A stretch of 63,636 bases of DNA, filler included, from Licmophora abbreviata (GCA_900291995.1; 15 parts of 15 records of this genome joined end to end with filler, not necessarily neighbours in it); one strand, 5' to 3'; shown: positions 14,564-61,714, counted from the first letter of the whole stretch. Notes: generated by a model not told the origin, from the letters alone. Translations and numbers: made by a program.

Positions 14564-16449
14564 ATGTCCAACGATGCGGAGCACTTGCTCCCCCTTCTTC
14601 AAGGTAGCGAGGGTGAATCTTACGCGCTTGATCACGATGGATGGGATGATGAGACTCCTGGTGCGTTCTACAAAAAATGCTGCGTCAGTGACATACACTT
14701 AATGCGGTATGTGCTCAGTGCTCACTGGCCATGTACCGATTTACCATGTCAATCCATTCCCAGTCTGTAGCTGGTACGGAGTTACGTGCGACTCGTCAGA
14801 TACTGTTGTAGAATTGAATTTGGCATCTATATCTCCTGCTCTGTCAGGAACAATCCCGGCTTCGGTGGGTAAGGTTTCAAGCCTTTCTCACATGTTCTTG
14901 CAGTCTAACGCGTTCGAGGGCACGGTTCCACTCGAAATAGCAGCTATGCCTAACTTGAGAACGATTGACTTAAGCCATAATACATTGAGTGGACAAATAC
15001 CTTCATTCCGATCTGAGACGGTTGAGGAGATCTTGCTGTCCCACAATCGACTCTCGGGAACCTTGAGCTCGAACGTTTTTAGAACGCGCGACAAGCTGAA
15101 AGTTTTCGACGTCAAGTACAATCTAGTGACAGGAACGATTCCTTTTCTCAATGCCAAAGATCTCGTGGAACTCGACCTGAGCAACAATAAACTGAGGGGT
15201 AAGAAGACAACATGTTCTGTCGCTGCCCGTGGTTGCTCTGCTGAATGCTCAGCTCTTGTTTCTGTCTCTCTCTCCTCCCCCCCCCCACTTGGCAGGTACG
15301 ATCCCCGGTTTTTTTTCGCAACAGAAGACCTTACGTCGGCTTTATCTTAGCAATAACAGACTGAGTGGTACCGTTCCAACTCTGAACACTGTCAGTGCCC
15401 TGGAGGAGCTCTACCTTCATGGGAATGGATTCTCAGGAACTCTCAGCCCCGAACTAGCAGAGCTACCAAAGTTAGCTGTATTGTTTATCGATGATAACAA
15501 AATCACAGGCACAGTGCCAAAAGTGAGTTAAAGTTGCCTCGTACTCTCCTGGAATGTTCATCGCGTCAACTCGGGTAAGTTCTTACCACCGGTACCCCTT
15601 CAATGTTCATCTATTTTTGAAGGAACTATGTGNNNNNNNNNNNNNNNNNNNNNNNNNNNNNNNNNNNNNNNNNNNNTTAATTAATTAANNNNNNNNNNNN
15701 NNNNNNNNNNNNNNNNNNNNNNNNNNNNNNNNAACCTCGCAAACTTTGGCTTGTCTGGAACCATCCCGCCTGATGTTGGTTTCTTGCCCGATTTGGAGGT
15801 TCTTAACCTCTCGGGTAATGAGATCGGTGGCAATCTTCCTGCTGACCTGCATTTCGCTCCACTCGAGCTATTCGATATTTCAGACAACAAGATCACCGGA
15901 TACGTACCGCGTAGTCTATGTCAAAAGCCGGGAATCAATGGCAATGGTCTAGATGGACTATACACATGTGACACTGTCGCCTGTGGGCCTTCATATTATA
16001 GTTCGATTGGAAGGGCCGAAGCCGGAACTGGAGGTGTGAAGTGCATTGCGTGTAGCGACGAAGAGAACTCAGACGGCTTTCTCGGTAGCACTATGTGTTA
16101 CAATACATCACCGGCGAGCAATTCTATTACTCCTTTTGGAGTTACAGGCGAGATCATTTTGTGCGGTATGGCAATTTGTTTTCTCGTCGTGCTGGGCTGG
16201 TTGTGGACGAGATCCGCGGTGACCCAACGGTATATTGCCGATCGCGTTCATGGGGATCGAGCTGATGAGCAAGACAACCGCCGTATGGACGACGCTATGT
16301 ATGACGAGGAAGAAGTCGACCGCTCAGTCATTGGGATGGGCGCCGTTGACGCTTACCCCACGGACATACAAGTCAGAGTCAAGGACGAGTGGTCGAGTAG
16401 TAAAGAGACAAGAAACGAAGTATGGTTGGATGTCCCGGCGATCCAGTGA
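14564..16449 (+). CDS. LRR receptor-like protein 1 (LRR-NT, plant-type LRRs, Cys-rich repeat, single TM, no kinase); spans a gap, start uncertain
   Basis: CSWYGVTC cap, LxLxxNxLSGTIP repeats, CGPSYYS...C..C, hydrophobic IILCGMAICFLVVLGWLW. Introns at 14661-14763, 15199-15295 and 15523-15622. Confidence 0.8.
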
Positions 16450-16677
16450 GCGCAAATGATATTCCTAGTGTCAAGACAAGCATCGTATTTATCCTTCAAT
16501 CATATTCTTACTAGTGTTACTACCTTTTCGAACATGTTTGCATTTTTCCGCGAGATCATATTCGAATGCCTTGTGGGTCATCGCCACACGGGAGACATGG
16601 TCATCACACTTATGTCCATTTATTTTGTCATTCAGCCCAACGCGCAATCTTGAAATCTCTTACAACACCATCACATT

Positions 16678-29557: not shown

Positions 29558-31892
29558 CTAGCGAGAACACAGTGCGAACAATGAGGATGGAATGGCATCG
29601 GTCTTTCGGAGGTTACCATCCTCTTCGGTCTGCAAAACCCCACGGAGCGCCCTTACGCAAGTCCGATAGTGCTCTAATGCAGTACGGATGAGATCTTTCT
29701 TGACGCTTATCTCAGTCGCTCTTTCGGGAGCCTCAATCAGGGATCTCATAATTGCGAACTGTCTAGTCTGACCACCTTTCAACAAGCTAATCGCCGTTCC
29801 CTTTCGTCCAGCCCGTGCAGTACGCCCGCACCTGATACATGCGTCAATGGAGAGACGTAAGAACGGGTGGAAGCTATTGCGGAAATTGCACTCAACCACT
29901 CCCATCTTACCTATGAACATATGTTTTTGCAAAACTTGGTACATCATAGTTGAATATGCATGGTACAGAAAGATCAAGTCCGCGACTCATCCCGTCGGAA
30001 CAGACCACCACGGAGACTGTGCTCTCGCCCGACCCAGCGCAACACTCCATCAAGGCGGAACGCTGTGACTGGCTCAGGGCACTGGAATACTCAACGACTG
30101 CTGTCGGTGGGCCGATTCCGACGGACGCCCATAGAAGCTGGAGCAATCGCGCAAGTCGATGGGTCGAATCCAAGCTTGAGGTGAACACAACCATCGTATT
30201 CGATTCTCCCTCAGATTCCACTTCTAGATACTCAAGCAGCAAAGCGAGCAAGATCAGTGGTTTTTGCTCAGCAGTGCATTCAATAGTGCGCTCTGATAAA
30301 CCGCTCGGCATCGAATATCTATGTGGTGCATCCGCGGTACCTTCCTGCAAGCGATGAGCGTCGAATTGCTTTGGATTAACCAGTCCAAGAGATGAGAGCT
30401 TTTGTGGATCCCTGGTCATTGTTGCCGAAAAGAGCAACTTCCTTAGCTGCACAGTTTGATGAATCGTCGGTTCTGGCGATAGACTGCCCGTATCGTTGCC
30501 CTCATCTCTGGCTCGTCGCCATGTTACGGGGTCAACGAGACAGGATGTACCTGCTGGTGATAGTTCCAGAGCTGATCGTTCCGTCGCGGTCCTCAATCTT
30601 GAATGCACAGCGGTCATCACCCGAGAGATGAAACTGTGGTAGGACTGATTCAGGAGGCGATCGGCTTCATCAACGACAAGAAAGTGCAAGTGTTGCAATG
30701 TGAAACCCGGCGTCCGATCCATATGATCCACGAGGCGACCAGGCGTCGCCACGAGGATGTCGACCGCACTCACCCCTCCCAATGGCATCCGACGTGCTGC
30801 ACTGTGCTGTTCAAGGTCACCCGCACCGGGGAATGCTTCGAGGGCGAGGTGGACATTGCCTGGATCAAACAGGTAGCGTTGGTGTGCGTGTAAAATGCTC
30901 GGCAAAAGACAAGTCGTATTCGACCCAACTGTCAGTGCTTTCTGCTCCGCCTTGAAGTCCGATTGGCCAACAGCCAGTCCGACGCGCAGGTTAGACCCGT
31001 GTGCGTATCGCTCAAAGACTTTGTGCACTTGAAGTGCGAGATCGCGACTTGGAAGAACGACCAGTGCCCGCAGTCGACAGACGGTCCTGTCGGCAAGCGC
31101 GTTCAGCAAAGGCAAAACAAACGCCAGGGTCTTTCCACTTCCAGTAGGCGACGCCACGCACACATCGCGAGCACGAAGGAATCCATGGCGCTGCGATGCA
31201 ATGACGTCAGGGATAACGAGTGCCTGGATCGGAAAGAAGTGATCGTAACCATCCCGCTTTAAGTTTGCAATGAGAAATGGGGCCAGCTCCCAAGATGCAG
31301 CCGCTTGCTCGATTGGCAAACTCGACATGTGTAGTGCCGCCCGAACCTCATTAGTAAGTGTAGCAGTGGTCGTATCGTCCGTGTGCCCCTCTAACTTTCC
31401 CTTGTTGTCCTCATCCAACAAGAGTTCCATATCGATGTCGAAGTCGTCAAAGGCTTCGTCTGTCCCACTTGACTTTAGGCTTGTACTACCAGTGGCTGGC
31501 TTGGCTTCTTCGGCGATGACCCGCAGAGTCGATGTTTCGCCCTCGTCGACTTCCTGTCCGGACAGGCTGGTGCTCGAATCCGATTCCGACGATTCCAGCT
31601 CAGACGAATCCTGTAAATTTTGTTCGGTGATGGAGGCATCGCGTCGTGAATACATCTTCTTCTTCTTCTTCCCCTCATCCTCTCGAGTTCCGATCGTCAG
31701 CTTTTCTTCACGTACTTCTGCTGGAGCATTACAAGAAGCTTCCGATTGGCCGCGTCCATGCTCTGAGCTCATCTGTTTCCTCTTACGACCATCATTCTTT
31801 GCAGCGCGTCTCTTTCGCGTAGAGCGAGGATGTTTGTCTGTCTTTTTGGTGTCGTCCGGCGCCCGGGGATCGAAGCGGCCAACTTGAAACAT
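29558..31892 (-). CDS. DDX51: DEAD-box RNA helicase DDX51/Dbp6 (60S biogenesis)
   Basis: FFPIQ, SPTGSGKTLAF, RLRALVVLPSRDLA, ATPGRLVDH, DEADRLL, LFSAT, SDGMSRGLD, YVHR|CGRTARAG across intron 29910-29832. Confidence 0.9.
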
Positions 31893-32251
31893 CAGTGACG
31901 AGACGTATGATGAGATGTGTTGGGATGGGCGATCGCGGCGAGATCTATCGGCCGATGTAATGGCTGGGGATTGAAACCAATGTGTTGTCAATTCGAGTTA
32001 CAGTTTTCAGAACAACATCGTCATCTCAACACAAAGGAGTATGCTGTGCGGGTGAGCGTCGTCATGGTTGTGTGTGGTCATGGGGTCGGTTGCTACGTAG
32101 ATCCAGCGTAGCTTATTCGTATTGATTTTTGGAACGTCGCGCCGTCGCCGGTGATGTGTTATGGTCTCAATACATTCACATTAGACCCGGGTATGATACC
32201 AGTTATACCGTCATCGCATTGACGAAGAAGAAGATTAGGAGGTATCTCACT

Positions 32252-44590: not shown

Positions 44591-47500
44591 TTACAACCAC
44601 GATTTTGCAATGGGTGACAAGAAGTCAGCCGTGAATACTGGCGCGTCCCTCGTAGCGAAAGGGTCATTCGCCGGAGGAGACATTACCGACACAATTGAAG
44701 CTTTCACGTGGGTGTCAGAAGAACGAGCTGCTCTACGGCCAGAGTCCCCGAGTTGCTCTCTGTGTTCAGCAAAACCAGCCACGCGATTGATCAGTCTAGC
44801 GACACAGATACCGGAGTCGGCATCGAGTCTTCGGTTCTCTCTCAAAAGGCGCACAACCGCTTGTTGTGCTTGCTTCTCGCATGTCGAAATGATTTGATCC
44901 TCTACTTGCGCAGAGAGGCGACGTTGACGACGACTGAGCCATTGGCGGGCTTGACCCTGTAGCCGCGTCGCTGACTCCTTCTTCAGACGATACAATCGAA
45001 CGCACTGGTAACGACGAACATCACACTGTAGGAGCACGCTTGCGCCATGTCGAGGGTACGCATCAAAGAATCGTCGTCCAAAGAGGGCCCTCCTCCAGGC
45101 GAGCTGGACTTTGATAGCAGTGCATCGCAGTTTGAAGAACCAAGCTCGAATGAACCTACCTCGAGCAACGGCCTGCAAGATGATGGTCTGTGACCGAATC
45201 ATTTTGTATCGGCGCTGGTAAAAACGGGTACGAAGTACTCCAGTATTGTCTGAATAAGAGTAGCTGCCAGAANNNNNNNNNNNNNNNNNNNNNNNNNNNN
45301 NNNNNNNNNNNNNNNNTTAATTAATTAANNNNNNNNNNNNNNNNNNNNNNNNNNNNNNNNNNNNNNNNNNNNCAGTCGAAAAATGCTCACCGACTTGTTG
45401 AGTTGTGTGGCGGCCTGGGATAGGGCGAATGTGTCCGGGAAAATCAATAGTCAAGCTCGGACCCGTGTCTTCAAGCGGCTTTGCAGGATCCCTAGGTGGA
45501 AGCGAATGCAACAAGATGGCCGCACAGAATGGCTTAGTTCTGTTCTGAGCGATCATTCGTCGAGTCGCACATTGAATGACTACAGCTGCTGCGTGTCTGG
45601 CAGTCTCAACTGCCTGGATCCAGGAGAACGAAAGCGACATCACACTCAACGCAACTGGTGACGCTTCTTGCTTAAGTGTCTCCCCAACTCTGTGAAAAGT
45701 ATAAAGAGCGCGCGATCCTAAGCACTCGTTGATGTGCGTCAACGCAAACCTAGCAGCCGAGCGCGAAAGTTGTCGCTTTGAGCTGCGTTGTAGAAGGACG
45801 ACCGATGACTCAAGGCTGAGAAGGACGAAGTCCATTTTCCAGCTTGCGTAGACTACCTGAATGAGCCTAGCCGCGTCATCAGCTCTACCCATGTCGACAT
45901 ACACAGGGCCGTACCAGTTAGCCCTTTGCCAATGGAATCGAAACGCAGATTGTATCTTCTTTGCCGCAGAAAGCTTTCCACGTAGCCTCTCCTGACAGAG
46001 GAATCGTCTTGTGGTTGACTGAATCACAGTGGCTGCATATCTCAATCTCTTCTTCTGGCGTCGCGAGCAGTAGGTCGCCCAGGCAATTTGAATCCTTTGA
46101 GCTGACGCATGGGACCACTTAAGGCGACGGCGCCAATTGGTCCCACGAAAGAGAGCCTGTATGCAAACAATGGAGTCGATTCTTCTTACGGAGTAAGTAT
46201 CGCGCCAGGCATACTGTCTTAGTAACGCCGCACGTTCCATCTCTATCAGTTGTCGGTCCATCGTCTGTAACGTTGCCGTGTAAGAACGATCGACAGCGCA
46301 ATCCTTCCTAGTCTGCATTTTCATCGCAGTAATTGGACGATGTCTTGCCTGCATAGCCGCCAGCTCTCGACGTTCCCTGTACCGGGACTGTAACGATAAA
46401 ACACCCAATCTCAGGAGCTTAAACGCAATTGCAGAATGCAGCCCCCTCGACACACTCTGGATCATCACACATGCAACTCGAAGCGAGACAAAAGCATGTC
46501 TTGCACTTGCGCCTCTCCAAATTGATTGGATCACAAGTGCCGCGCCTTCCCGTCGCTCCAGCCGAGCCGATATAGCGTGATTCCGTCGGCTTCGCTCTGC
46601 CAGGAGTTTCGTGTATCGGGAACGTCGCACGAAGTGTTCGCAATACCTTAAGATTATTCGGGTCGCAATCTCTTTCCTTGACTCCACCAGGCGCCGCATA
46701 ATCGTGTCGCGAGCTAGATGTCTTCGATATACCGACTGAATCATGATCGAGCATATGCGACATGTCACGTACGGCCGACGAACAACTGCGCAGCGCCACG
46801 CCGACTGGACCTTGGTCGCGGAAAGAACGGATTGACCGTGTGTCTTGCGTCCTCGCACTCCACGGTACAGCCCCTGAAATCGTATGAAACCACTTCGCAG
46901 CACAGTGAGCCGCATCATATGAGCTCTTGCACGTTGCCGAGATTGAATGGCGATAGAAGCGCATCGCATAATGAGGAAACGTTCACGTTCACGGAAGGCC
47001 CGCCACCCCGCCTGAATCTCTGTCGCATATTCTTGTTGATTCTCACTACTGCTTTGTGACGCTAGACCTACTGATGATCTATACGGTTCTCTTGAAACCT
47101 GAGCAACATCGCCCTTGTAATTCCTCTTTCGGAAAAGTCGCTGCACAGATTGAGCACTTCGGACAGTCTCCATGAAGCAGAGACGGTCAGATATCATACG
47201 ACCCCAAGCTTGAATTGTTGTCGCCGCTAGAGTATCAAGCGCTTGTTGTTCCAGTCTGAGAGCGTGTCCTAGTTGAGTCTTGACTGTCAGTAGTACGTGT
47301 TGCCGTCGCCGCCAGGAGCTCACAAGTGGAGATCTCCGCGTTTTACATTGAAAGTATACATAGCAACTCTCCAACTTGGGAACACCTCTGACAAAGAAAT
47401 GAACTCCTATTTCTTTCTCCCAGAATATTCGAAGCCCCTTATCTACCAGCGGGGCACCTTCAGTAAGCGACCAAGAGTCGACGCGGCCGACCGCCTCAGA

Positions 47501-49032
47501 AATTGCGCACACCTTCAACCGCGCGTCAAGAGTCCGCTGGTGACATACTCCGCCTCGACAAAAACAGACTGGAGAGACCACGACTCTACAAGCGCAAGTG
47601 CGACCGCAAGTTGTGCTAGATGAACTCTCCAAGCATTCTGAATAGTGATAACTGCTTCGCACTCGCGCCGCAGTGCGGCCAAATGTTGCAAGAGCTCGTC
47701 CTCTTCCTCGCCACGCGCCGAGTGTGGATTGTACAGAAAGCTGTCCTCACTCTCCACCAGTGCCTCGGTCAATAGCCATTTCCGGACGGCTCGCTGAATT
47801 CTAGTGACGAAGAAGTCCTTGCGTATGTGTTCGAGCCTTGTCTGAAGTATATGATCGCTATTGAGGAAAAGCGCCGAATCTGGCGTAAACTTTCGGCCGT
47901 CGTCCGGTATTAAGAAGTCGGCAATGACTTCTTTGGCGGATCGAGCTCGGGATGATGCCGATGCCTCACCTCGACTATCAGCTCTAAACAATATGTCTTC
48001 ACCACCTTTCTTTTCCACGGGCTTGCTACGCGGCACTGTTGACTTCATTGTATCGCGGCGGGTCGGTCGCCTACGTTGAGCATTAGACTTTGCCATCAAT
48101 GACGACGCCGATCGCTTTTCCCCTCTGTGAAGACGCTCAAATATGGAATCTGTTGAAAGATTCCTACTTTGTCCCGTATGGAGTGACTTTGGCTTTATCG
48201 GCGACAAAGGTTCTACCCCTTGAGCGGCTGAGATCGACGGCCGTCCGACGACACGATTCTTTTGTCGGGCTGCAGGCGGTGTGTAAGCAAGTCGTCGCTC
48301 CAGAGAGGCTGAAGCTGAGAGCGTCCGGTGCATCGCTCGCTTACGATGCGATTCATTGCTAGCAACATTTCGTCTTCCACTTTTCGGCAGCGGGGTACGT
48401 GTTCGTTTCTCATTGCGGTACAATCGATCAAAGACAGACTCTGACGATGAAAGTGTCGAAATCGTCGATTCATCGACACTTCGAGAGGGAGTTTTACGAG
48501 ACGCTTCCTGTCTCACTTTGGATTTCGCATCTCGGTACAAGCGATCAAAAATAGACCCAACAGATGGCTCACGAAGCGATTGGCGTCTCCGCAGCTTTCG
48601 GTCTGGAGTCTCGACAATCGGGACAGGCACTTGCACTGGCGGGCTTCGTCGGCTCACCGCCGCATTGGAGGTTATCGATTCCCTCGAATGAACCTGAGCG
48701 CGTTTAGCCTTTCTAGAGCTTGAAACTGACCATCGCTCCTCCAGGTCTCGTAGTCTATCATGGAGAGGTTGGGAGGGGGTGCTGATGATTGTCGCCATGT
48801 CGTTTTCCGCTTCGTTGCAGTCACGAGAATTTGTATCGCATCCCGGTCGCGCCGATTCACTCGATTGTCCATACCTGTATCTAGGGGACCTGGGAGGTTT
48901 GGTCATTTCCGTGGATAAACTCGTAGACGCCGTCACAGCCAGAGTGGACTCCGAAGCAGAGGAACTCTTGCACGTTCTGCCGAGCTCTTCTGATTTGACG
49001 TATTCTGACATGAGTTCTGATAAGTTCATCAA
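44591..49032 (-). CDS. Large IQ-motif rod protein with N-terminal SxF(D/E)RL(Y/H) repeats (ASPM-like rod, no CH domain seen); spans a gap
   Basis: Ser/Arg-rich N-terminus with SIFDRLY, SVFDRLY and SIFERLH, then many IQxxxRG motifs (IQAWGR, IQAGWR, FQGLYRG, IQSIWRG, IQALFRG, LQAVARG). Frame change in a T-run near 47560. C-terminal end uncertain. Confidence 0.7.
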
Positions 49033-50523
49033 AGTGAAGTAAAGTTAGAGGCTCTGGGACATGACCTGTCGCACAATCGATAAAAGGATAAACAGCAATT
49101 GATAGGCTGGTCCTTGGTGTCGTAGCAAAGATCTCTCAGACGCTGAAAGGGCGAAATGTGGTTATCATTCATCATGGCGATGATCATCGATCTCCGCTGT
49201 GATAAGGTGCTGAGGGTGCCCGCGCTCCCATCGACTCACTCGACTCACTCATTCAGACTTTCGCTGGTACTCCGAGTAGGTCGCACCAGGCATCGTCAAA
49301 TGGGGCATACCAGGTACGTGTGTGCTCTAAGCTCCGCTCCTCTNNNNNNNNNNNNNNNNNNNNNNNNNNNNNNNNNNNNNNNNNNNNTTAATTAATTAAN
49401 NNNNNNNNNNNNNNNNNNNNNNNNNNNNNNNNNNNNNNNNNNNGGATATTCTTTTTTCGTCTCGTCCTTTAGGTTGTATCGTTCGTCCCGCGGAGGTCCC
49501 CTAGCAACCGTCTTACTCGTAGAGAGTTGAGTCTCGCGCGGAAGTGCGCTGTTCGGGGTGTTCGTAAAAGACGTCATAGTTACTCGTATTCTTCTAGAAG
49601 AGGTGGAGAGTGTATTTTCAATTTAGGTTTCGCGGTCGCGGGCAATCGTGCACCGGGCACCGGCAGTATGACAACATTCCTTGTACGCCCCAGCCGCATC
49701 CACAATTTTGCAGGTCTTCTATCGATAAACCAGGACGAGAAGCAGTGCTAGAGACTTTGTAGATCAGGTGAGACTACCGGGACGAGTAGACTACGAACGA
49801 CAAGCGAAGAGGAGAGGAATGACAGATCTCAAAGCTCTTTGGACGGTAGTCCAGTCCGTCGAGTTCTTTGATTGAGGCCCATTTGAGGTGTGATATTGCC
49901 ATCATGGAACAGCAACAGGGCCGTGAGACTTTGCGCTTCCATAATGAAGAGTGACATCTTGAAAAGGACTTATCTAATACTCGGAATATTCAGAACGCGC
50001 GTAACTGCCTGTTCGACCAAGTGAAACGCGGAGATTTGGAATCGGATATACCTGAATTCGCCACAGCTATCGCCACGACATGACCGACCGTCGGCTTCGA
50101 GACGATGCTATGGATGACGCCGAAATCTAAACAGAGGAAGACGTCATATCAGACGCTGTGATGCGATCAGCCTTTTCTCGAGAGCGACATGCAAATGATG
50201 GGTGAAGAGTTGACTAGGTAGAGCACGGCTCCGGACCAGTTGAAGAAGAAATAACCTTTCGTCATACAACTTCTCAAGGAGGTCGAACACCATTGATCAT
50301 CCCAAGCGTTTTCCTCTTTTCGAAGGTGATAGATTAGATGAGAGAATTACCAATTAGTGAACTCTTTAGTCCTCCTTATTTGTTGACCCTGGATACTGAT
50401 GAAGTTTTGATAGAACGTGACCGTGTCTGTCGTCCTGTAGGTACTTTATGTCTTGGACATGATCGCAAACGAAAGGACACCCTCTTGACAGGAACAAACC
50501 CCGAACTTACGTATCTAGCAGGT

Positions 50524-53500
50524 TTATTTCTCTACGACGGAAACAAGATTATGGAGTGTTCGTACCCCTCGCTTGAAGTCCGCATCCTTCTCCGACTTGC
50601 GAGTGCGTCCGCCCATAGATTGCCTACCAGCGCTCGACACTGACATCTTCCGCATGCAGAGCGAATATACTCCTTTGAGGCGTTTGACATTCTCGGTGGA
50701 CGCGAAATCCATCTGCGATCGAAGGAGGTGAGAGAGAAACTGTTGAGCAACGGACAAGGGCAGCAGATATCAACAGTGTCTGTATCAGGCACGTTGTTCG
50801 AGATTCTCCATACCTTCAGGCGACTACTGCTTGTGACGACCAAGCTCAACAAGGTGACGGATGAGTAGAAGACGTTCTCCTTGTCGCGAAACATTTGAAC
50901 AAGGTCCATAAAGAGCTCTGCGGAGTCAGTCGATGCGACCCGAGGGAGCAGGGATCTGTGTCTGACTACATTCCGAAAAGTCCAAAGAACATGACCCAGA
51001 AGTTCAATGTGTGGAAGGCTTCGGTTGCATGTGCGGATAAGCGAAAACAGAATTTCCGTGGCGTCACATTCCGTGAAGGCAACACAGCATCTCCATGACA
51101 GCCGAGTGCTCATCTCAAGCGTCTTGACGGAGGACATTATTTCTGAGAGGCTCGTGCTATCCTGGAGTACAAGTAGGGCCGCCGCTGTGCGCGCTCCCAG
51201 GCGCATAGAAGGATCCTTACGAGCCCGGATAGTGGCACGCTGGACTCGACGAGCCACGAGCACTGCCTTCTTCGGTCGGTGAACTCGAACATAGTGTCCA
51301 CGAATAGCACTCTGCAGGGTTATAGCGCCGATCCTCATGCTGCGTAGTACTGATCTTGTCAAGAATCCTCGTGCAGCAGCCTGCACGCAGGCAATGTGTC
51401 CGTGTATTCGTCGAAGCAACAAGAACCGACGGAGCGCAGCCTGAATCTTGGATGCCTGCGCGTCAATGAACATAACTTCGACAGTCATAAGCAGCTCCTG
51501 TCGACGCAGCTGGGCGACAAGTCGTTTCGCGGAGACAACACGGAGGACAGATTGCATTCGAATCGTAGCAATCATCGTAGCAGTAAAGTTTGTTTTGGCT
51601 CGGTATCCCCTCCAGATACGTTGGATTTCAGATGCTGCGAAGTGACGGAGGTCGAGATCAAGTCTGGCAACAAAGCCTCTCGAAGCACACTGAATGCGTA
51701 TTGCCGCAGATTTGAGAAGGCGAAAGTGGCCCGACGCGATCAGACATCGTACGCGAGCTTGAAGTTTAATAGCTGAAACAGTTTGATCTCGGCGCGTCAG
51801 CCACTGCCGTGTCACCGCCTGTATGGAGATCGCGGCGAACACAGAGCGTCGAAAGTGGGTTGAAGCCTGAAAACGACGAACGGAAGATTGGATCGCAATC
51901 ACCGACAGAATAAGAAGCATATAATCAACGTGAACATTGAAGCATCGCCATGTCTTCTGAATCCTCGCAGCTGCTCCATGACGTTTGACGAGCTCCCTTT
52001 CCTTCTGGACATCCACCTTGTGCCGCCAACATCTGGCTGTGCGTTGCAGAAGTACAACGGCGGCAACAGAACGTCCACAGCGAAGAATCGCGAGACGTCT
52101 ACGGATGATACTCTGAACAGTGATGATGTCAATTAGAAGCAGGTGGTAGCTCAGTTGCGTGAGAAATCCTCGAGTCATCCGTTGGATAGTAATACTTTTC
52201 TCTCTCCGATTTCGCTGCAGGGNNNNNNNNNNNNNNNNNNNNNNNNNNNNNNNNNNNNNNNNNNNNTTAATTAATTAANNNNNNNNNNNNNNNNNNNNNN
52301 NNNNNNNNNNNNNNNNNNNNNNACAAGACGATTGGCTTCGCGTTCCTGGCGCAAGCGAGACACACAGCGAACAGCTACTCGCACGCGAGCCTGGCATTGA
52401 AGACGCACAATAGAATCCTGACATCTTGCGAAACGTTGTACAGCAAGATGTCGTCGACCAAAGCTCTGGATGGTGATGAGATCTTGGACGACAAGGCGAT
52501 ACCTGACAAAAGCTGAAACTCCTCGCCATGCGGTCTGAATAGCTGTGGCACAGCGGTTCAGAAGAGTGACTCTCTTACGAGATACATAACCACGCATGTT
52601 GGCTTGCATTGATACTGCAGCGGTTCTCGCAGATTGGTAGGCCATCAAGCGATACCACGCCCGCCATCTAGTCTGAATCATTGTTGCGCTGTTGGCGAGA
52701 CGTCGAATCTTGCCAGCAAGCTTTCGATTTAGATGAACCCGGATCGATGCCTGGATAGCTGTTGCACATGCGTTGAGGGACATGATTTCAAGTCGAGCTC
52801 TTCGTTCGCGGTATAGCGACTGGATGGCTGTTGCAGCACCTTTCGATATCAACAACTTGCTTCGTGCGAGGAAGGCCCTCCATGACGTCTAGATGTGAAA
52901 GGCAAGATTAACTCAGTGAGCACAGACATGGGCGCGCTCAATGAAGTTCGAGCATTTAAGCAGTACATACCTGAATAACGACTGAAGCCTCACATAGATA
53001 CCTCGCCTGCATCGCTACTTGCAATACTACGACATACTCCCTGGAGCTACGGGCTCTGAAAGCCGATTGAATTAGGGTAGCTGCCTTCGCTTGCGTTATG
53101 TTCCGCTGTCGGAAGGAGAGCTGACGCCATCGGCTCTGAATGATGATGGCTGCGAGATTTCTGTGTTGCCGATGATATAGGAGCTTTCTCGCACGTGTCT
53201 TTCGGACTAGTGTCTGGAGAAGAGTTGCGGTAGGTTAGATTCGCAAGCTCGTTCGTCGAAGTAGATTTCGGTCTTTACGTACCTGTATCACAGTGGCTGC
53301 TGTCGATCGACTTCGATGCCATTTTTCCACAGCAGCTATCGTTGTCGCACGAGACTTGGCGAGAAAGAGGCGACAAGCGCGTTGAACGACACAGACAGCA
53401 CAGGCTCTTCGCTGAAGCTCTTTGTAGGCTAATGTCCGACGAACAACGCTCTGCACGGCAATTACGTCCATGAGATCGACTTGAAACTGGAGCTGAGTGC

Positions 53501-56500
53501 GGAAACCACGCCATACACGCTGGATTTCGGTCGCCGCCTTTGCCGCTACGATTTTGCTTTTCCGCTGAAGGTATCTTCGAGCGAACGTTTGAATCCGCGT
53601 CGACGCCAAACGCTGCACGAGGTATTCCATGCTCTTGTATCTTCGCCATACCTGCTGAATAAGCACTGCGGAGTGTCGATCGATCATCGATTGTTTCGTG
53701 CTTTGTTGGACGACGAAACTGCGCCACAACGACTGGATTCTGACCGCAGCACGAAAGCAGAGTAGAGCAGGTAGTGCTCGCCTTTGGGNNNNNNNNNNNN
53801 NNNNNNNNNNNNNNNNNNNNNNNNNNNNNNNNTTAATTAATTAANNNNNNNNNNNNNNNNNNNNNNNNNNNNNNNNNNNNNNNNNNNNTCGAGCAAGCCG
53901 TGAGATACGACGTAGTGAAGGGCGACACGCTTGTACTCACGACGCGGTCATACAAGGAACGTACCTGAAGGCGGACTGCAGCTCGGTTTCTGTCGTGCTG
54001 CATAAGTCTCTCTCTGCGCATTCTCTTAAGATTGTGCCGGAAGGTGATCAAGAATGCTTCAATGGTAAGGACTGAGCCGCGGAAGTTGCGGCGCTGTTCT
54101 TCGAAATAGCGAGTTCTGTTCATTCTCCAATGATTCCAGATAACACTTGCGGCACACAGTTTCCTTTCAGTTTCGAGCAGTCGCTTAAGCCGACGGAACC
54201 AGCTCTGAATCGCAATACTCGCAAGGATCTCTCGACTTGATTCCACCAGACGAGAACTCAAATAAGCAAGGCAGAGGAGCATCGATTTTTCTTCTGGCGT
54301 CGATTCTGTGTCCGCCACTGGAAGCATCCTTGGAATTCCACCAAGGTCACTCATCCTTGCATTCGCCAGCTCAAAGTTGCGTCGCTCTCTCGCGAGAGCC
54401 TGATTTCGTGCGTCATTCGATACGTCGACAGGAAGATGCATCGTAGTTGGATGGATAGCTTCCAGGGGGATCAGGCTCGGGTGATAGTAGTTTACAAGTA
54501 GACAGAGGACAGTACCGTCTGCGAAAGAAGTCGTCAGATTAGAAACGGAAGCGCCATAGCACGAACAGACGGCGTTAGTCCATCGAAGAAGGAGTGACTT
54601 GTATGTTTCATTGCTATCTCCGCCTGGCAGTGCGTTCTCAACAGTCGCCACATCAGAAGACACGGAGAGGCCCCTGGCCAGCTTCCACTTTTGCCGACGT
54701 CTGGCTCGTCGCACGGTTTCTATCTCTGTCTCGATTGACTCACGCCGTAGAATATGTCCAAGACCCCAGTGGGATAAGACAAGCCACATCAGCTTCAAAA
54801 CCATTTCTCGATGTCCGTCGACGAGGTGATGGGGTGCGACATCTTCGATTCCATCAACACCATGGCCCCGCAGAATTTCGAGTACAGTACCAACATTGTG
54901 AAGCTTCTGTAGGCGGGAGACAGCGGGAAGACGAAGCCGCGTCAAAATTACTTTCGCGCTCTGTTTCGTAAGAATCTCAGTCAACCTTGCCAAGCGAACT
55001 CCGTCGCGAAGGTCCGTCGCCAAATTTGAAATCGTAAAATCAACCTCATCCACAGGCTTCTGACTGTAGGTTGGTTTGAGACCGATGCGAGCAAGGTGTT
55101 TGATGATGTCGCCTTCCGACGACAAGAAATCGCGACAGAATGCCACTAGTACGTCTCTGGTCGACTTCACTTTGGAGCCCTTCACAAACAATCGCGGTTC
55201 CTTGTCGATGATATTGGCTTCTTTCGCTCGATCGAGGAAGAAGATAAGGGTTAGCAGCCGACGGAGCGCTAGACTTCTCGTCTCCGCACGGTACTTCTTC
55301 TCAAAATTGCCTGACGGAACTTTGCAGCGACCTTTCGTGTACTTCCTGAGAGTAGCTGGATCAGACAAGACACGGTTCACGATGAAGTGCTTGAGAGTCA
55401 ACTTCATGCGACTCAGTGGTGACTAAGCGAGAGAGATACAAGCGAGCAGGCATTAGTCGAGCACTTGACAGTCGGTATGGTCTCAGATCGTCCTTACGTA
55501 CCTTTTCCGCTTTTGCTCGCGCCGAACCAATAATGTTGAATTTCTGAGGGGAAAATTGATTCGGAGATTCAGGCAGAATGATCTCTCCAAAAACTGTTTC
55601 GAGGCCCAAGCGGAGCCATGGTGTCGAGTACGAGAGAAGGAGCGAAGTGATCTGACCTCTGAGCGTAAGATCGGCATACATGTCGCGGTCCTCTCGCAGC
55701 GCAAGACGCTTTCTCGACACCTCAGCGTGAATACTACGAACTGCACCTTTCATGGGCTTGCTGCCAAAGAGGTCAAGTGCCTTCGATCTAACTTGGGCCA
55801 TTCGTCGATGAAGGATTAAAGTGCGTAGAGCTGTTCGATCCATTGTCGCGCCGTCTAGACAGCTCGCTTCGTGATCTCGATCCTCCGTAGGTTGAAAAAG
55901 ATAGTTCAGCCAGGTGGCGAACGCTTCGCACTGCTGTCCTGCCCAGTCACCATCACTCGACACTTGAACTTGGGTGTGCCTACGCGCCGCAGCGCTCTCG
56001 GTACTGGGTCTGGAGATGGACATGGCAGTGGTTTCGAGCGACAAACGAGCAGGAGTCTTGCGATCAGCATCGGGCTCGTTCTGGACGGTCGCAGTAAACA
56101 TTGCGGAGAGGTCCATCTGCACTCCATTCCCACGTGTTCGATAAGGCGTCGACCCTATAAATTGTGGAGTTGCCGCTGAATTTTTGCGAGCCGTGGAATA
56201 GATGCGACGCAGGCGGACAAGAGATCGTGGTTTCGCGTTGGGGGCTGCGACGGCGCAACCGGCCGAGGAGTCGATCATACTCTCGTCCCTCAAAACCATG
56301 GCGACGTGATCCTCCTGTGGGAAATCAACGGGTACCGTCGGTGCGAGCACATTCAGCGGGGCTGGAGACTCTTCAAGAACCGGCTCGGTATCCAGCATAT
56401 CAGTTTCGACGGTCTGGTTTGTGGGTGAGATCAGTAGACTTTCTTCCGCGTCGTGAAAGTCGTTGAGCTCCGTGATGAGAAGTGACTTGGGTGTCCTGGG

Positions 56501-56857
56501 GGCCTTCGCGATTCCTGCACTTCGCTTTGCACGAGTGGACAAGCCGGTCGATGCAAGCAGAGGACGACCGCGAACGGGGAGAGTCTGCAAAGACTGTTGC
56601 TTGTCCTGCGATGCGTTGTCCTTGTCACGGACAGAAGGTGACATCATGGTGGCGCGCAGAGACCGGCGGAAGGAGCTGACGGACGTCTGTACATTCTCCT
56701 TTTCATCTGTTGACGCTGAGGACAGTCCTGGAGTCTGTTTCGATGGCTTTCGAGTGTCTTTACGATGAGATCTTTCATCACGATTGTAGGACGTCAGCGG
56801 CTCAAAGGCGACACGTCTCCCTTGCGGCCGAGCCTCTCGCCGACCAGCGTTCTTCAT
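50524..56857 (-). CDS. ASPM: Abnormal spindle-like microcephaly-associated protein (ASPM/Asp); spans two gaps
   Basis: FATWLNYL, LLSYSTPWLRLGLETVFGE, LIFFLDRAK, CH1 (NLATDLRDGVRLARL...SRLQKLHNV...VDGHRE), CH2 (NLTTSFADGTVLCLLVNYYHP), long IQ array, C-terminal LIRTCNRSLPH. Last intron 50813-50713. Start uncertain. Confidence 0.93.
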
Positions 56858-57420
56858 TCTCGCTCCCACAGAAGTTTACACTAGCAAACGAAGCAAAGTC
56901 AAGAGATGTCCAATACTCGTATGGACTGCAACTGGACGCAGAGTGATGCTGAGACGAGATTGAAGATCTGGATGACGACGACAAGAGGAGCTTGTCGTAT
57001 TCCAATTCAAATTCCTAACAGTAATTCATGCATGGATACGATATATAACAATTCTACAGGAAATCAGTACTGATATCTACGCATGCCTTTCATTCGAACG
57101 GGGGTTCGCGCGCCATCTTTTTCCTCGCGTACCTCGCGCCAATGACAGAAAAAGGCGGCACAGCGCTATATTACTGGTATGATACAGTGAGTACACGGTG
57201 CCGCACCATCATCATCAAGCTGTATCATAGTCCAATGCAACTTGAAACTGCGATCCCCAGAAGAAGTCTTGCATAGTGCGGGACCGTGAGACGAAGCAAG
57301 AGCTAAAGACGGAAGGGAGGCGATTGAGCCAGACTTGCTGGAACTGAACGGTCTCGCTATTCGAAACGACCGGTATCAGGCAGTCGGAGTCACTCTCATC
57401 GTCACTCATCGCTCTTCGGC

Positions 57421-59130
57421 ATGACGACCTCGAATGCACCGCTCTCTGATCCACCACGGACTGTTCTGAACGAGGGGGGTGAGGAAATTGCCAGTGATCT
57501 TTTCGAGAAAGCAGATGCTGCACTTTCCGTCAGCCCGGACGCTACACCGCAACCGATTGGCCTCCCCGCCCAATACTCCCTTGCAAGTAAAGACAGGCGG
57601 CACACGCCGACATCCTTTGCCTCTCCCGCATCCTTGGTTCAAGACGACGAGAGTGTTGGTATTTCGAGCATACTCGCTTTTCTGAGTCGACTCGAATCAC
57701 CTGATACGATAGCAACGAATCAGGATTTGTCCACTAGCCCGACGACCCAGTTTTCAGTTCCCGAAGTGTCCCCGATGTCTTCTGTCGGCAACCGCAGCGC
57801 CGTTGATTCGTCGACTGCTCAGCTCTCTCCTCTCCCTCTGGCAGACTACACGAATCGAGCTAATCCGAAACTTGCGGCGTGGAAACAGCTACTGCATGGC
57901 AGAACGGCAACAGAAGCCTCGTCGTCGCGGAAGCAGCCACTTCTGGCAACTACGCCACCGACGGCTCCCAAAGGCACTGCCCCCACTCCTGTTTCGACAG
58001 CGGCATCCAGAGTGAGCCATGAAGATTCACCGACTCCCCACGAGCCCTTGTCTGATCAGGACCAGCGCCATGACATGGACACGTCTTCCTGTGAAGAGTC
58101 GCCGCCACTTCGTACGACGCTGCCGCATCAGACACTTTCCACAACATGCGATTCGGCAATGCTTGAGGTGCTGATCGATGAGGATCCTCAAGGCGGCCAT
58201 ACCATAGAGAAACGCGTCAGAAATATTCTCTTGGAGGCGCACCGAGAACGCGAGTCTGTTCGATCCTGGGCGACTGCAATGCGAGAGTCAGTTGAAACCT
58301 GGGTGCGAGAGCAACGAGCTCTGGTGCAGTGCGAGAGGTTGTGCAACGCAGATCAGATGGAGGCACTGTTGAATACTACGCGCCACGTTGCGGCTCTCCA
58401 GGAGGCGCTGGAGATCGCGAACTCTGAGCGGGAAGCAGCCTCGGCAGATCATCGGACGGTCGAACTAAGACTACGAGACTTGGTGCGGAAGCAGGAGGCA
58501 GAGATCCGAACACTTCAAGAAAGGATGTCCTCCATGGAACAACACAAGACGGATTTGCATCAGCCTACCAAGAAGGAATCAGTACTTTCCGTTGCGTGCG
58601 ATGAACTTGAACCTCAGCGGGATGACAATCTGCCAAGAAAGTCTTCCTTTCGAACCCAACGAGAATTTAGGTCTGTGACGTCTCCTCCTTCGGATCAAGG
58701 AGATAGCGCACTTCCTCGTCAATACCGGTGTGTTCTTGAAGACGGCAGTACTGTGGTGGTCTTTCGGAACGGCGTGGAAAAGCTTCGTCGTACCGACGGC
58801 TCGACCATTGTGAAGTTCGTGAACGGGGACATGAAAGAAGTCTCACCGGATGGGGTAGTCTATTACTATCACGCAGCGCAAAAGGTGAGTTAAGGCGTTG
58901 CTCGTCTTTTCTACCCTGAAGAATTGCTGTCATTCCTCAGCGCGGGCCTTACCTTCGTCGTCGTTTTTGTGCTTCAGACAATCCATACGCGCGACAACAG
59001 TGGGCTCGACATCTACGAATACCCGACCAGACAAGTGGAAAAACACTATCCAAGTGGCCAGAAAGAGGTTGTCTTTCCTGATGGAACTGTCGAACGCATC
59101 TCTCCCACCGGGGAACGAGCAAGAGGATGA
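57421..59130 (+). CDS. CENPJ: CPAP/CENPJ/SAS-4-like protein (coiled coil plus C-terminal Tcp10/G-box domain)
   Basis: Coiled coil, then VVFRNGVEK...DGSTIVKFVNGDMK...DGVVYYYHAAQK|TIHT...GLDIYEYPTRQVEKHYPSGQKEVVFPDGT across intron 58885-58977. Confidence 0.85.
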
Positions 59131-59459
59131 GGGCTCAGCTTGACAGTTGCTTCGTCGGCAGACGCTGCAATGTCCCGTCATTTCTACTGCTACATAGTTC
59201 TACTAAAAGGATCAGCAAACGAGTGGGACTACAACTTAGAATACAGAGCGTCGGCTATGCTTTAAAGCTAGGGAGAGAGGTGACTAAAGTGAGCAGTGGT
59301 CCGTTATGTTGTCTGTCCGTCATATCGTGAGATGCTTGTCACATGTTCTAGCAATGTATAATGCCGAGCGGTCGTACAACACATTTCTACCATTGATCAT
59401 CGAGTCGTTATAATACGTAAATATACAAAAGTAGGATATTCTGAGGGCGCGCAATCGGC

Positions 59460-59481
59460 GAGTCAGTCAGTCAGTCAGTCA
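59460..59481 (+). repeat. (AGTC)n microsatellite upstream of a gene, possibly initiator-like
   Basis: GAGTCAGTCAGTCAGTCAGTCA about 150 bp upstream of ATG 59630. Confidence 0.6.
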
Positions 59482-59629
59482 TCACCTCTCGCTCATCACA
59501 GTTGCTGTAAGTTGCCTCATGATCTCATGATGGCTCTCGTCCTCGTCGTCTTCGCCAAAAGAATCGAATCATCAGGGTTCTGCTGTTCTGTCGTTGTCGA
59601 GACTTCCCATTTCCCCACATTAGAATTTA

Positions 59630-61714
59630 ATGATGGAGGATTCACCCCTCCGTGTAGATCTGTATTTTCCAGGAGACGTGATCAGAACAAAGTTTGGCGT
59701 CGGAGTTCTGACGGCATGTCCCAATGGCACCAATATCCACTACAGCGTGAGACTTTGGAGGATTCCGGGCAAGTCTATTGCGTCCTCGAGCATGGCATAC
59801 TTGCAGCAAGACTCGGTATGTCATCAAACTTAACTTTTTGCGCACAGAAATTCCACGTGCCTTGATTTGTTCTAACTCTTGAATGATCACGCGATGTAGA
59901 TCCTCGGTACGCTACCAGCAGCCCCGGGCCTTGTGACCGCTTTGAAGCGTGATCCGGGAAACAGATTAATGGTCTGTTGCTTCTATGATGCCCAATCTCT
60001 TTTTTTGGTGTCTCCTTTGAGCGGGAACGACAACTTGCAGCCCAAGACGGTATTGTCGCCAAAATCGGACGACGAGCCCGATACACATGCCTTGAACCAC
60101 GACACGTGCTTTGACGTAGCACCGGATGAGTTGGTGAATGCGACGAGTGCCAAGTTCTATCCGCTTTTGGACGATCTAATGAGCAGGGGGGATAATACTG
60201 CATCTGTGACTGCGCATTTCGTGAGGAGCGACCAGGTGGCAAGTCTGGTGAAGAAGTCGAAAACCTTGGTAGATGCGGCGGAATCGCCGAGCGCGATCGA
60301 TGCTCTTTCACCAGATGACGTTCTGTCGTCTGTCAAGACTGTGATACCAAGTGAACAAAATGTCAAAGACGTCTTTTCGATGCTCAAAGATGAGGAACTC
60401 ACTGTGCTACTGGAAAAGGGGAGAGACCGTTTGAAGCAACTCGTCGAGACAGACATGCCGGAGGCGACGGAGCTGGCCCTGCAGAAAGCGGGGATTTCCA
60501 TCATCTCTGACAATGACTCCTCTTCCTTCTCTTGTGCAGTCGCGAAATCGAGAGAAGCAGCCTTATTGGCTCTGGAAAAGCTGATGGATGAAGTTGACGT
60601 CGACTCAGCGGACCTGCAGTCGATTCGCGTGCATCTCGAGGGGCATTTCACAACTATGTTCGATTCCCTTTCGCAAGCTGCCAAGTCAGACCGAGACCTG
60701 AGTTTAATCTTCGATACAATATCAGGAAAGACATTTGCATGGCAAGAATCTACTGGAAGGCTCATGTCAACAAAGTCAGTTGGGCTCTTCCTCGAGGGTG
60801 CGAGTCGTTTTCAGGCGCGCGCTGCGCATATGTTTTCGAGGGAGCACATGAACTGGGCAGGAGAGATTGCAACGAAAGTTACCAAAGCGTTCACTGAGCG
60901 GGACGCTGCTGTCGCTCGACTGAAGTCGCTGGAGCTAGGCGATGCTGTACGGGCTCGTCTCGTGGACGCAATCGAAGTTCGAAGTGAAGCGCATGGCGGA
61001 CTGGATGGGATCATTGCAGGAGCCCTTACCGCTGTCACGAAGGCTGGCGACGCTTCGGGCGAGCAATTACAGAATCTTTTCAAGGGGCTGCAGCAAAGAG
61101 CAACACTGAGTTCCACTGAGGCGCACGAGACGCTGATTTCCGTCCTATCTCATCGAAGTCGGTATCGCGATGCCGCCCTCCTTCGAGTTGAACTTGTCTT
61201 GTGCAATTTGGAGTCGCAGCTCGGAAATGACGTATCTCCGAGTCAGATTGCAGCCCTGGCTCGTGGCGAGGGTGGTACTGCGAGTTTGTTTCAGCCCATT
61301 GCAGACCGTGCGGCGAAGGAAATTGAAAAGCAGCTGCATGCTGCGGAAATTGCTATTTCAGATCCCACAATCCTTGGTGCTTTGGCCAATGTTCGCAAGA
61401 TCATGTCCGGTGAACTTTCTATTGAGGGGCTCTTTGAAGAAGTCGTGAACTTACTGAACGACGATTCTGTGGTTGCTGCTGGTGAAACGTTTGTCAAACA
61501 CGGTGAAACTGTATTGGATGTGATCGAAGGCGTTTCCGGAAATAAGGTTGTGGGCGATGTAATTGAGATAGCTGAGAAAGCAGGCATTACGAAGGACTCT
61601 GTGATAAGTCAAATGGAAACACTTAACGTGAATGACATCTTGGTAAGCAAGTTGTTGCATATGTTGAAGGGCCGTATGAAGCGTGTATTCAAAGATTCTA
61701 TTGCTCTATCGACA
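59630..61714 (+). CDS. Uncharacterised protein, 3'-truncated by a gap
   Basis: Exon 1 (YFPGDVIRTKFGVGV...YSVRLWR) splices via 59816-59899 into a long, mainly helical open frame. Another donor lies at about 61643. Confidence 0.65.

What the first reader, a model, noticed from the sequence alone, without database searches (positions are those of the whole stretch)
44591..59130. Candidate spindle-pole gene cluster: IQ-rod protein + ASPM + CPAP/SAS-4
Seen in sequence: three neighbouring genes encode an IQ-rod protein, a full ASPM and a Tcp10-domain CPAP. Established: ASPM (MCPH5) and CPAP (MCPH6) are both spindle-pole/centrosome proteins, and diatom vegetative mitosis uses acentriolar polar structures. 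Inference: this may be a co-regulated module for the diatom spindle pole. Caveat: one linker (49344-49443) separates the IQ gene from ASPM, and three genes can be adjacent by chance.
Basis: partly seen in the sequence, partly recalled or inferred. Interest (0 to 1): 0.7.

Follow-up and report, generated by a model that had tools for sequence, protein, structure and literature searches.

The report
Conserved head-to-head ASPM and CPAP genes
Two spindle-pole and centriole genes, ASPM and a short CPAP/SAS-4 relative, sit back to back around one short promoter region here and in two distant relatives, while the third gene, an IQ-repeat protein, is probably only a chance neighbour.

Summary
All three genes are real. 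However, the window is a scaffold of 15 contigs joined by 100-bp N/TTAATTAATTAA linkers, and four linkers lie inside the finding, not one.

- **ASPM** (minus strand, 56857 to 50535) has two CH domains, an IQ array and a C-terminal region. It has no detectable ASH domain and two assembly gaps.
- **The CPAP-like gene** (plus strand, 57421-59130, two exons, 538 aa) has a coiled coil and a short G-box. The G-box matches only CPAP/SAS-4 structures and keeps most STIL-binding residues.
- **The pair.** ASPM and CPAP are head-to-head on one gap-free contig, with 563 bp between start codons. The same arrangement (285 and 260 bp) occurs in both related metagenome contigs that have enough upstream DNA. 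These two contigs lie on different branches of a well-supported clade of seven.
- **The flanks.** Flanking genes are mostly not conserved.
- **The IQ gene** (49029 to 44594) belongs to a conserved, unnamed CH-less IQ-array family. It carries an apparent frameshift and is not next to ASPM in any of three relatives.

Verdict: a conserved divergent ASPM-CPAP pair, probably sharing a promoter. The three-gene module is not supported. Co-expression and the diatom assignment could not be tested.

The parts
44591..49029 (-). CH-less IQ-array gene (the 'IQ-rod protein'). It reads as three ORF pieces: 47518-49029 (N-terminal, Ser/Arg-rich), 45374-47746 and 44594-45271, with the stop at 44591-44593. Linker 45273-45372 interrupts it.
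   Evidence: Pfam IQ 56.9 bits. A loose IQ pattern counts 15 motifs. A full HMMER scan found 261 proteins at E<=1e-3; the best is P0131 (2143 aa, E 1.8e-81) and is colinear across non-IQ regions. The N-terminus of P0138 matches 48049-48813.
47204..47566 (-). Conserved non-IQ domain of about 110-120 aa, specific to the IQ-gene family.
   Evidence: 36-40% identity to P0131, P0138 and P0152. No Pfam family. The AlphaFold2 model has pLDDT 64.9, too low to classify.
47560..47580 (-). Apparent frameshift joining the N-terminal ORF to the main ORF of the IQ gene.
   Evidence: The relatives read straight through this point. The DNA leaves no room for an intron. This could be an assembly error or a real lesion.
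49344..49443 (.). Scaffold linker between the IQ gene and ASPM. The join is not verifiable from the sequence.
50532..56857 (-). ASPM orthologue. ATG at 56857-56855 and stop at 50532-50534. Intron at 55423-55501. Further short introns lie near 53235-53300 and 52889-52958. Linkers at 53789-53888 and 52223-52322 fall within the IQ array.
   Evidence: CH 72.8 bits, CAMSAP_CH 39.1 bits and IQ in four pieces. The best database relatives (63% identity) are named abnormal spindle-like microcephaly-associated protein. The C-terminal region is 42.8% identical over 479 aa to the ASPM of L002. GT..AG intron. A loose IQ pattern counts 19 motifs.
56858..57420 (.). 563-bp region between the two start codons; the putative bidirectional promoter.
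   Evidence: Start codons located. The equivalent regions are 285 bp in L002 and 260 bp in L029.
57105..57142 (.). Inverted pair of E2F-like sites: TTCGCGCG at 57105-57112 (+) and TTGGCGCG at 57135-57142 (-). This is a lead only.
   Evidence: It is the only close pair among 23 window matches, but the motif as such is not enriched (18.6 expected). One site lies in the L029 intergenic region and none in L002.
57421..59130 (+). CPAP/SAS-4-family gene, 538 aa. Exon 1 is 57421-58884, the intron 58885-58977 and exon 2 58978-59130. The G-box spans about 58729-58884 plus 58978-59115.
   Evidence: Tcp10_C 51.6 bits in exon 2 and 26.4 bits in the exon 1 tail. PDB matches are only CPAP/SAS-4 G-box structures: E 3.5e-7 for exon 1 and E 3.1e-19 for exon 2. 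GT..AG intron read.
59900..61714 (+). Conserved gene of unknown function (605 aa visible, runs into linker 61715). It is also near CPAP in L029.
   Evidence: No Pfam family reaches its cut-off. tblastn against L029 3-1565(-) gives E 4e-78.

Best explanation
The core of the finding is a conserved divergent gene pair. An ASPM orthologue and a short CPAP/SAS-4-family protein (disordered N-terminus, long coiled coil, half-length G-box) are transcribed away from each other across 563 bp on one uninterrupted contig.

Shown:
- Both genes belong to their families by domain content.
- The head-to-head arrangement, with 260-285 bp between start codons, recurs in two distantly related contigs. ASPM CH-region identity to the window is about 48-49%.
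- The genes on the outer sides of the pair mostly differ.

Inferred:
- The pair predates the clade.
- It is kept together because the short shared region acts as a bidirectional promoter, perhaps cell-cycle (E2F-type) regulated. ASPM (microtubule minus-end and spindle-pole organiser) and CPAP (centriole or basal-body assembly through a STIL-type proline-rich partner) would then be made together.

The CH-less IQ-array gene downstream of ASPM is a real member of a conserved, unnamed family. Its position next to ASPM is most likely a lineage-specific accident or a scaffold-level adjacency, not part of a module.
For: - **Gene identity.**
- **CPAP in relatives.** Pfam Tcp10_C scores 50.0 bits (L029) and 52.1 bits (L002). 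PDB matches are E 2e-12 and 1.6e-22.
- **Structure.** The AlphaFold2 model of the L002 protein has a helix at 168-286 (pLDDT 95-98) and a beta-meander at 357-462 (pLDDT 84-92). Its 11 best Foldseek hits are all CPAP/SAS-4 TCP domains (E 4e-9 to 2e-6, rmsd 2.0-3.2 A for the zebrafish entries).
- **STIL-binding residues.** PMC3776556 (passages) names the zebrafish residues F978, Y994, Y996, H1003, T1005, F1015, Q1019 and E1021. In the HMMER alignments, 6 of 8 are identical in the window protein, 6 of 8 in L002 and 5 of 8 in L029. F978, Y994, Q1019 and E1021 (the human MCPH residue E1235) are kept in all three, and position 1015 is always aromatic.
- **Linkage.** tblastn with the window's CPAP hits only L002 and L029 among 80 ASPM loci, each upstream of ASPM on the opposite strand. 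These are the only 2 of the 6 clade loci with upstream DNA; the other four have 0-53 bp.
- **Clade.** SH-aLRT support is 100. L002 and L029 lie on different sub-branches.
- **Flanks differ.** The ASPM 3' neighbour is the IQ gene in the window, an unknown ORF in L002 and ANAPC4 in L029 and L005. The gene beyond CPAP is down605 in the window, an FAD oxidase in L002, and peptide deformylase followed by down605 in L029.
- **No scaffold join.** The window pair lies on the gap-free contig 53889-61714.
Against: - There are no expression data. No RNA holder was listed, so co-regulation is purely inferred.
- Only two relatives could be tested. Both are unnamed metagenome contigs and they are phylogenetically non-independent.
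- Outside the clade the pair is absent. None of 7 distinct loci with at least 3.6 kb upstream (L006, L008/9, L011/27, L022, L024, L026, L032) has a G-box ORF, nor does any of the other fetched loci.
- The three intergenic regions share no conserved block; only one 7-mer is common to all.
- E2F-like sites occur in 2 of 3 intergenic regions, and the motif is not enriched in the window (23 found against 18.6 expected).
- Short head-to-head pairs tend to survive rearrangement simply because a break would damage both genes.
- CPAP co-occurs with centrioles and basal bodies, which diatoms build only in sperm (PMC3144413, passages). That would predict a different expression pattern from ASPM.
- No tubulin-binding PN2-3 region was detected, and the N-termini are not conserved.
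Confidence: 0.6

Rival explanations
1. The ASPM-CPAP adjacency is an ancestral accident kept by inertia. Two genes with a very short shared upstream region are hard to separate without damaging one of them, so the pair persists while the flanks turn over. No co-regulation or functional coupling is involved.
For: Only 3 lineages were seen (window, L002, L029). The pair is absent in 0 of 7 out-of-clade loci with room. There is no conserved sequence block in the intergenic region. The E2F-like motif is not enriched. Another mitotic gene, ANAPC4, is the 3' neighbour of ASPM in L029 and L005 but not elsewhere, so mitotic genes can be neighbours here without being conserved.
Against: Both genes belong to families that act at centrosomes or spindle poles (established for animals; PMC3776556 passages). 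The pair is the only adjacency kept in all three lineages, whereas outer adjacencies are kept in only 1 of 6 pairwise comparisons. Head-to-head pairs are reported to be co-expressed more often than other neighbours (abstracts of PMC1487180 and PMC7817982 seen in the listing).
Confidence: 0.3
2. One reading: the IQ-rod gene, ASPM and CPAP form a three-gene co-regulated spindle-pole module.
For: The three genes are consecutive in the scaffold. The IQ gene carries ASPM-type IQ repeats. The three intragenic linkers join pieces in the right order and orientation, which makes the 49.3-kb join plausible.
Against: The IQ gene is not downstream of ASPM in 0 of 3 clade relatives with downstream DNA. Its specific domains hit none of the 80 ASPM loci. 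It lies in tandem, about 1.5 kb beyond the ASPM stop and across an unverifiable linker. Nothing links its family to the spindle. It carries an apparent frameshift.
Confidence: 0.07
3. Assembly artefact: the apparent neighbourhood comes from wrongly joined contigs or a collapsed or duplicated haplotype.
For: There are 14 linkers in 63.6 kb. The IQ gene has a frameshift. The IQ-ASPM join cannot be checked.
Against: ASPM's 5' half, the intergenic region, CPAP and down605 lie on a single contig without N. The IQ gene and ASPM share no DNA similarity and only repeat-level protein similarity, so the IQ gene is not a haplotig of ASPM. The ASPM pieces across two linkers are colinear with single-ORF orthologues such as L005.
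Confidence: 0.03

Closest known systems
ASPM / Drosophila Asp (MCPH5 family)
   Same: Two CH domains followed by a long IQ array and a conserved C-terminal region. The best database relatives carry the ASPM name.
   Different: No ASH domain is detectable in the window or in its clade relatives L002, L029 and L005. Out-of-clade relatives L006, L024 and L032 have one. About 2,000 residues are visible, with two assembly gaps.
CPAP / CENPJ / SAS-4 (MCPH6 family)
   Same: C-terminal G-box (TCP) beta-meander preceded by a long coiled coil. Only CPAP/SAS-4 structures match by sequence and by fold. Most of the STIL-binding edge is kept, including the residue equivalent to human E1235.
   Different: It is much shorter: 538 aa, against roughly 1,300 aa for human CPAP (figure recalled, not from a call). 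Its G-box covers only about positions 11-126 of the 184-192-residue zebrafish construct. No PN2-3 or other tubulin-binding region was detected, and the N-terminus is disordered and unconserved.
Conserved head-to-head (bidirectional-promoter) gene pairs
   Same: Divergent orientation, less than 1 kb between the genes, and conservation across lineages. The abstracts of PMC1487180 and PMC7817982 (listing) describe such pairs as conserved and often co-expressed.
   Different: Co-expression is not shown here. To my knowledge (recalled) human ASPM and CENPJ lie on different chromosomes, so this linkage is not the animal arrangement.
CH-less IQ-array proteins P0131, P0138 and P0152 (unnamed family)
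   Same: The window's IQ gene shares their Ser/Arg-rich N-terminus with repeated 'FDRLYR.EKR'-like motifs, the conserved domain of about 110 aa, the IQ array and a conserved C-terminal stretch.
   Different: P0131 and P0138 carry the conserved domain twice (read from the sequences), and the window gene has it once. The window gene has a frameshift and a gap.

Membership tests
ASPM | Tandem calponin-homology domains | tested here: met
   PF00307 at 72.8 bits with 2 stretches, and PF11971 at 39.1 bits, in 53890-55422.
ASPM | Long array of IQ motifs after the CH domains | tested here: met
   PF00612 above its cut-off in four pieces. A loose IQ pattern counts 19 motifs. Two assembly gaps hide part of the array.
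ASPM | N-terminal ASH (ASPM-SPD2-Hydin) domain | tested here: not met
   No PF15780 hit at E<=5 in the window's N-terminal ORF, nor in L002, L029 or L005. It is present in L006, L024 and L032. The domain may be diverged rather than absent.
ASPM | Conserved C-terminal region after the IQ array | tested here: met
   42.8% identity over 479 aa to the ASPM of L002, and 33-36% to L004, L005 and L029. It was not compared with animal ASPM.
CPAP/SAS-4 | C-terminal G-box / TCP domain (single-layer beta-meander) | tested here: met
   Tcp10_C at 51.6 bits. PDB matches to CPAP G-box structures at E 3.1e-19 and 3.5e-7. The model of the L002 orthologue matches 11 CPAP/SAS-4 TCP chains first. The domain is about half the animal length.
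CPAP/SAS-4 | STIL/Ana2-binding edge residues | tested here: met
   6 of 8 residues named in PMC3776556 are identical in the window. F1015 is replaced by Y and T1005 by R (alignments). Binding itself was not tested.
CPAP/SAS-4 | Coiled coil before the G-box | tested here: met
   The L002 model has a helix at 168-286 with pLDDT 95-98. The aligned region of the window protein is conserved.
CPAP/SAS-4 | Tubulin-binding PN2-3 and microtubule-binding region | tested here: inconclusive
   There is no PDB sequence match outside the G-box for the window, L002 or L029 proteins. The N-termini are unconserved. Short motifs could escape these searches.
CPAP/SAS-4 | Co-occurrence with SAS-6, STIL and CEP135 and with centrioles or basal bodies in the organism | not testable with these tools
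   No whole genome is held and the taxon is unknown.
Bidirectional (head-to-head) gene pair | Divergent genes less than 1 kb apart | tested here: met
   563 bp between start codons in the window, 285 bp in L002 and 260 bp in L029.
Bidirectional (head-to-head) gene pair | Correlated expression from a shared promoter | not testable with these tools
   No RNA holder was listed. The laid runs gave only short contigs.
   The ASPM-CPAP linkage holds in 2 of 2 testable relatives. The IQ gene-ASPM linkage holds in 0 of 3.

The most novel reading that the evidence does not exclude
A CPAP/SAS-4 homologue with an intact STIL-type binding edge is transcribed together with ASPM from one cell-cycle promoter. 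It works in every vegetative division at the acentriolar spindle-pole or microtubule-centre structure of this lineage. A core centriole-assembly protein would then have been kept and reused for an MTOC without centrioles, and the conserved gene pair would be the genomic trace of that coupling.
Probability: 0.15. Interest if true: 0.75.

Novelty: new member of a known kind. Interest (0 to 1): 0.45.

Why it matters
ASPM and CPAP are two of the classic microcephaly and centrosome genes of animals. A lineage in which they share a short divergent promoter region, kept while the surrounding genes were reshuffled, offers a compact and testable handle on how spindle-pole genes are co-ordinated in a protist.

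If CPAP is expressed with ASPM in vegetative cells, a centriole-assembly protein would be acting at an acentriolar microtubule centre. If it is expressed only during sperm formation, the pair shows that a shared upstream region need not mean shared regulation.

I found no paper on this linkage in the library searched. The IQ gene adds a conserved, unnamed family of CH-less IQ-array proteins.

Tried and rejected
- **Whole-genome search.** No genome is held.
- **Word-index homologue search with the CPAP conserved half.** 1572 candidates, none at E<=1e-3. This reflects the word index and is not evidence of absence.
- **The same search with the IQ gene.** It returned only 5 weak IQ-level hits. The full HMMER scan then found the real family.
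- **Taxon assignment.**
  - Cluster look-ups returned no organism names except Mucochytrium for P0088.
  - Two Atlas searches gave only IQ/myosin or fungal CH clusters below 0.9.
  - The window's other genes are ordinary eukaryotic housekeeping genes.
- **Earlier findings of the scan.** Nothing by place, sequence or words.
- **Sequencing runs.**
  - No RNA holder was listed. The best holders were marine metagenomes with 0.04-0.14 of the words.
  - Laying reads on the gap-free contig 53889-61714 placed 25 short contigs (151-479 nt) from 4 runs, 19 of them at least 99% alike. None bridges ASPM and CPAP and none is informative about expression.
- **HMM of the three CPAP proteins against all six-frame ORFs of the 80 loci.** Only the two training sequences scored. 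The next best was E 2.1.
- **Shared promoter motifs.** Only one 7-mer is common to the three intergenic regions. E2F-like sites occur in 2 of 3, and the MSA, CHR and CCAAT patterns are inconsistent.
- **AlphaFold2 model of the IQ-family domain.** pLDDT was 64.9 from a 4-sequence alignment, too low for a fold search.
- **Haplotig idea for the IQ gene.** Rejected: it has no DNA similarity to ASPM.
- **Intron as the explanation of the IQ-gene frame change.** Rejected: there is no room.
Full report
**What the sequence is.** The window is not one continuous assembly. It consists of 15 contigs joined by 14 identical 100-bp linkers, each 44 N, TTAATTAATTAA, 44 N. Four linkers fall inside the finding:
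- 45273-45372
- 49344-49443
- 52223-52322
- 53789-53888

At the three linkers that fall inside genes, the pieces follow each other in the right order and orientation. The ASPM pieces are colinear with orthologues that are single ORFs, such as L005. The linkers therefore behave like scaffold gaps. The join at 49.3 kb lies between genes and cannot be checked this way. No whole genome is held.

**ASPM.** The gene lies on the minus strand, from the ATG at 56857 to the stop at 50532-50534.
- Pfam finds two CH domains (72.8 bits), CAMSAP_CH (39.1 bits) and IQ motifs in four pieces. A loose IQ pattern counts 19 motifs.
- A 79-nt GT..AG intron lies at 55423-55501. Two more short introns in the IQ array are read from the ORF breaks.
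- The best database relatives reach 63% identity, and JGI names them abnormal spindle-like microcephaly-associated protein.
- The nearest relatives with an organism name are a labyrinthulomycete (38%) and an oomycete (32%). This supports a stramenopile. 'Diatom' was not verified.
- No ASH domain is found at E<=5 in the window or in L002, L029 or L005. More distant relatives L006, L024 and L032 have one.

**The CPAP-like gene.** It lies on the plus strand. Exon 1 is 57421-58884, a GT..AG intron is 58885-58977, and exon 2 is 58978-59130. The protein has 538 aa.
- Tcp10_C scores 51.6 bits in exon 2 and 26.4 bits in the exon 1 tail.
- By sequence, only CPAP/SAS-4 G-box structures match: E 3.5e-7 for exon 1 and E 3.1e-19 for exon 2.
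- The orthologues on L002 and L029 match at E 1.6e-22 and 2e-12.
- An AlphaFold2 model of the L002 protein shows a disordered N-terminus, one 119-residue helix (pLDDT 95-98) and a beta-meander (pLDDT 84-92). Its 11 best Foldseek hits are all CPAP/SAS-4 TCP domains.
- PMC3776556 (passages) names eight zebrafish residues that contact STIL. In the HMMER alignments the window protein keeps six. F1015 becomes Y and T1005 becomes R. The residue equivalent to human E1235 is kept in all three proteins.
- The G-box is about half the animal length.
- No tubulin-binding region was detected, and the N-termini are not conserved.

**The IQ gene.** It lies on the minus strand, 49029 to 44594. It is not a copy of ASPM: there is no DNA similarity and only repeat-level protein similarity.
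- A full HMMER scan found 261 proteins at E<=1e-3. The best is P0131 (E 1.8e-81).
- P0131 is colinear with the window gene through a conserved non-IQ domain (47204-47566) and a conserved stretch near the C-terminal end of the main ORF. P0138 also shares the Ser/Arg-rich N-terminus.
- The N-terminal ORF and the main ORF are joined by a frame change near 47560-47580, where an intron cannot fit.
- The family has no Pfam domain other than IQ.
- A model of its conserved domain was too uncertain to classify.

**Synteny test.** I fetched 80 metagenome loci that encode ASPM relatives.
- In a quick maximum-likelihood tree the window falls in a clade of seven (SH-aLRT 100) with L001-L005 and L029.
- Only L002 and L029 have DNA upstream of ASPM; the other four clade loci have 0-53 bp.
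- In both, a G-box protein lies directly upstream on the opposite strand, with 285 and 260 bp between start codons. The two loci sit on different sub-branches of the clade.
- The outer neighbours are not conserved:

| Lineage | Gene beyond CPAP | ASPM 3' neighbour |
|---|---|---|
| Window | down605 | IQ gene |
| L002 | FAD oxidase | unknown ORF |
| L029 | peptide deformylase, then the down605 homologue | ANAPC4 |
| L005 | no DNA available | ANAPC4 |

- Outside the clade, none of 7 distinct loci with at least 3.6 kb upstream has a G-box ORF. None of the more distant loci has one either.
- The family-specific parts of the IQ gene hit none of the 80 loci.

**Reading.** The robust result is a conserved divergent ASPM-CPAP pair on a gap-free contig (53889-61714). 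A shared bidirectional promoter is the simplest reason for its persistence, but that is inference.
- The three intergenic regions share no block.
- An inverted pair of E2F-like sites in the window (57105-57142) has one counterpart in L029 and none in L002, and the motif is not enriched overall.
- No RNA data could be used.
- CPAP co-occurs with centrioles and basal bodies and is lost with them, and diatoms make basal bodies de novo in sperm (PMC3144413, passages). CPAP may therefore serve only gamete formation.
- The alternative, a role at the acentriolar vegetative pole, is the boldest reading left open.
- The three-gene module is not supported.

**Literature.** Searches for diatom ASPM, CPAP/SAS-4, centriole-protein evolution and head-to-head pairs found no report of this linkage. 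PMC10454807, on diatom microtubule-centre components, contains no occurrence of CPAP, SAS-4, SAS-6, CENPJ or ASPM (term search).

Noticed in passing
L029:13793-16242 and L005:8123-10186: In two clade relatives the gene convergent with the 3' end of ASPM is ANAPC4, an anaphase-promoting complex subunit. This is another mitotic gene next to ASPM. The window has no homologue of it.
   Followed up: partly
window 55364-56875; L002, L029, L005 versus L006, L024, L032: The ASPM of the window's clade has no detectable ASH domain. ASPM relatives outside the clade keep one (28-33 bits).
   Followed up: partly
window 47560-47580: The IQ gene has an apparent frameshift. Orthologues read through this point and there is no room for an intron. 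It could be an assembly error or a real lesion.
   Followed up: partly
window 48049-48813 and P0138 residues 30-325: The IQ-gene family shares a Ser/Arg-rich N-terminus with a repeated motif of the type S.F(D/E)RL(Y/H)R.EKR. Its function is unknown.
   Followed up: no
window 59900-61714; L029:3-1811: A conserved protein with no Pfam family lies beyond CPAP in the window and in L029 (E 4e-78). In L029 a peptide deformylase gene is inserted between them.
   Followed up: partly
window 24103-27313: A cohesin SCC3/SA (stromalin) gene lies on the plus strand in two ORF pieces. It is another chromosome-segregation gene in the same scaffold, about 23 kb from ASPM.
   Followed up: no
window 10281-14088: A DEAD/DEAH helicase is followed by an MrfA-type zinc-binding domain (MZB) on the minus strand. 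A second DEAD-box helicase lies at 29910-31997.
   Followed up: no
L011:525-1454: In one out-of-clade locus a three-repeat Myb gene lies upstream of ASPM on the same strand. Three-repeat Myb proteins control G2/M genes in plants (recalled).
   Followed up: no
window 14703-18914: Three consecutive plus-strand ORFs with leucine-rich repeats, split by linker 15633-15732.
   Followed up: no
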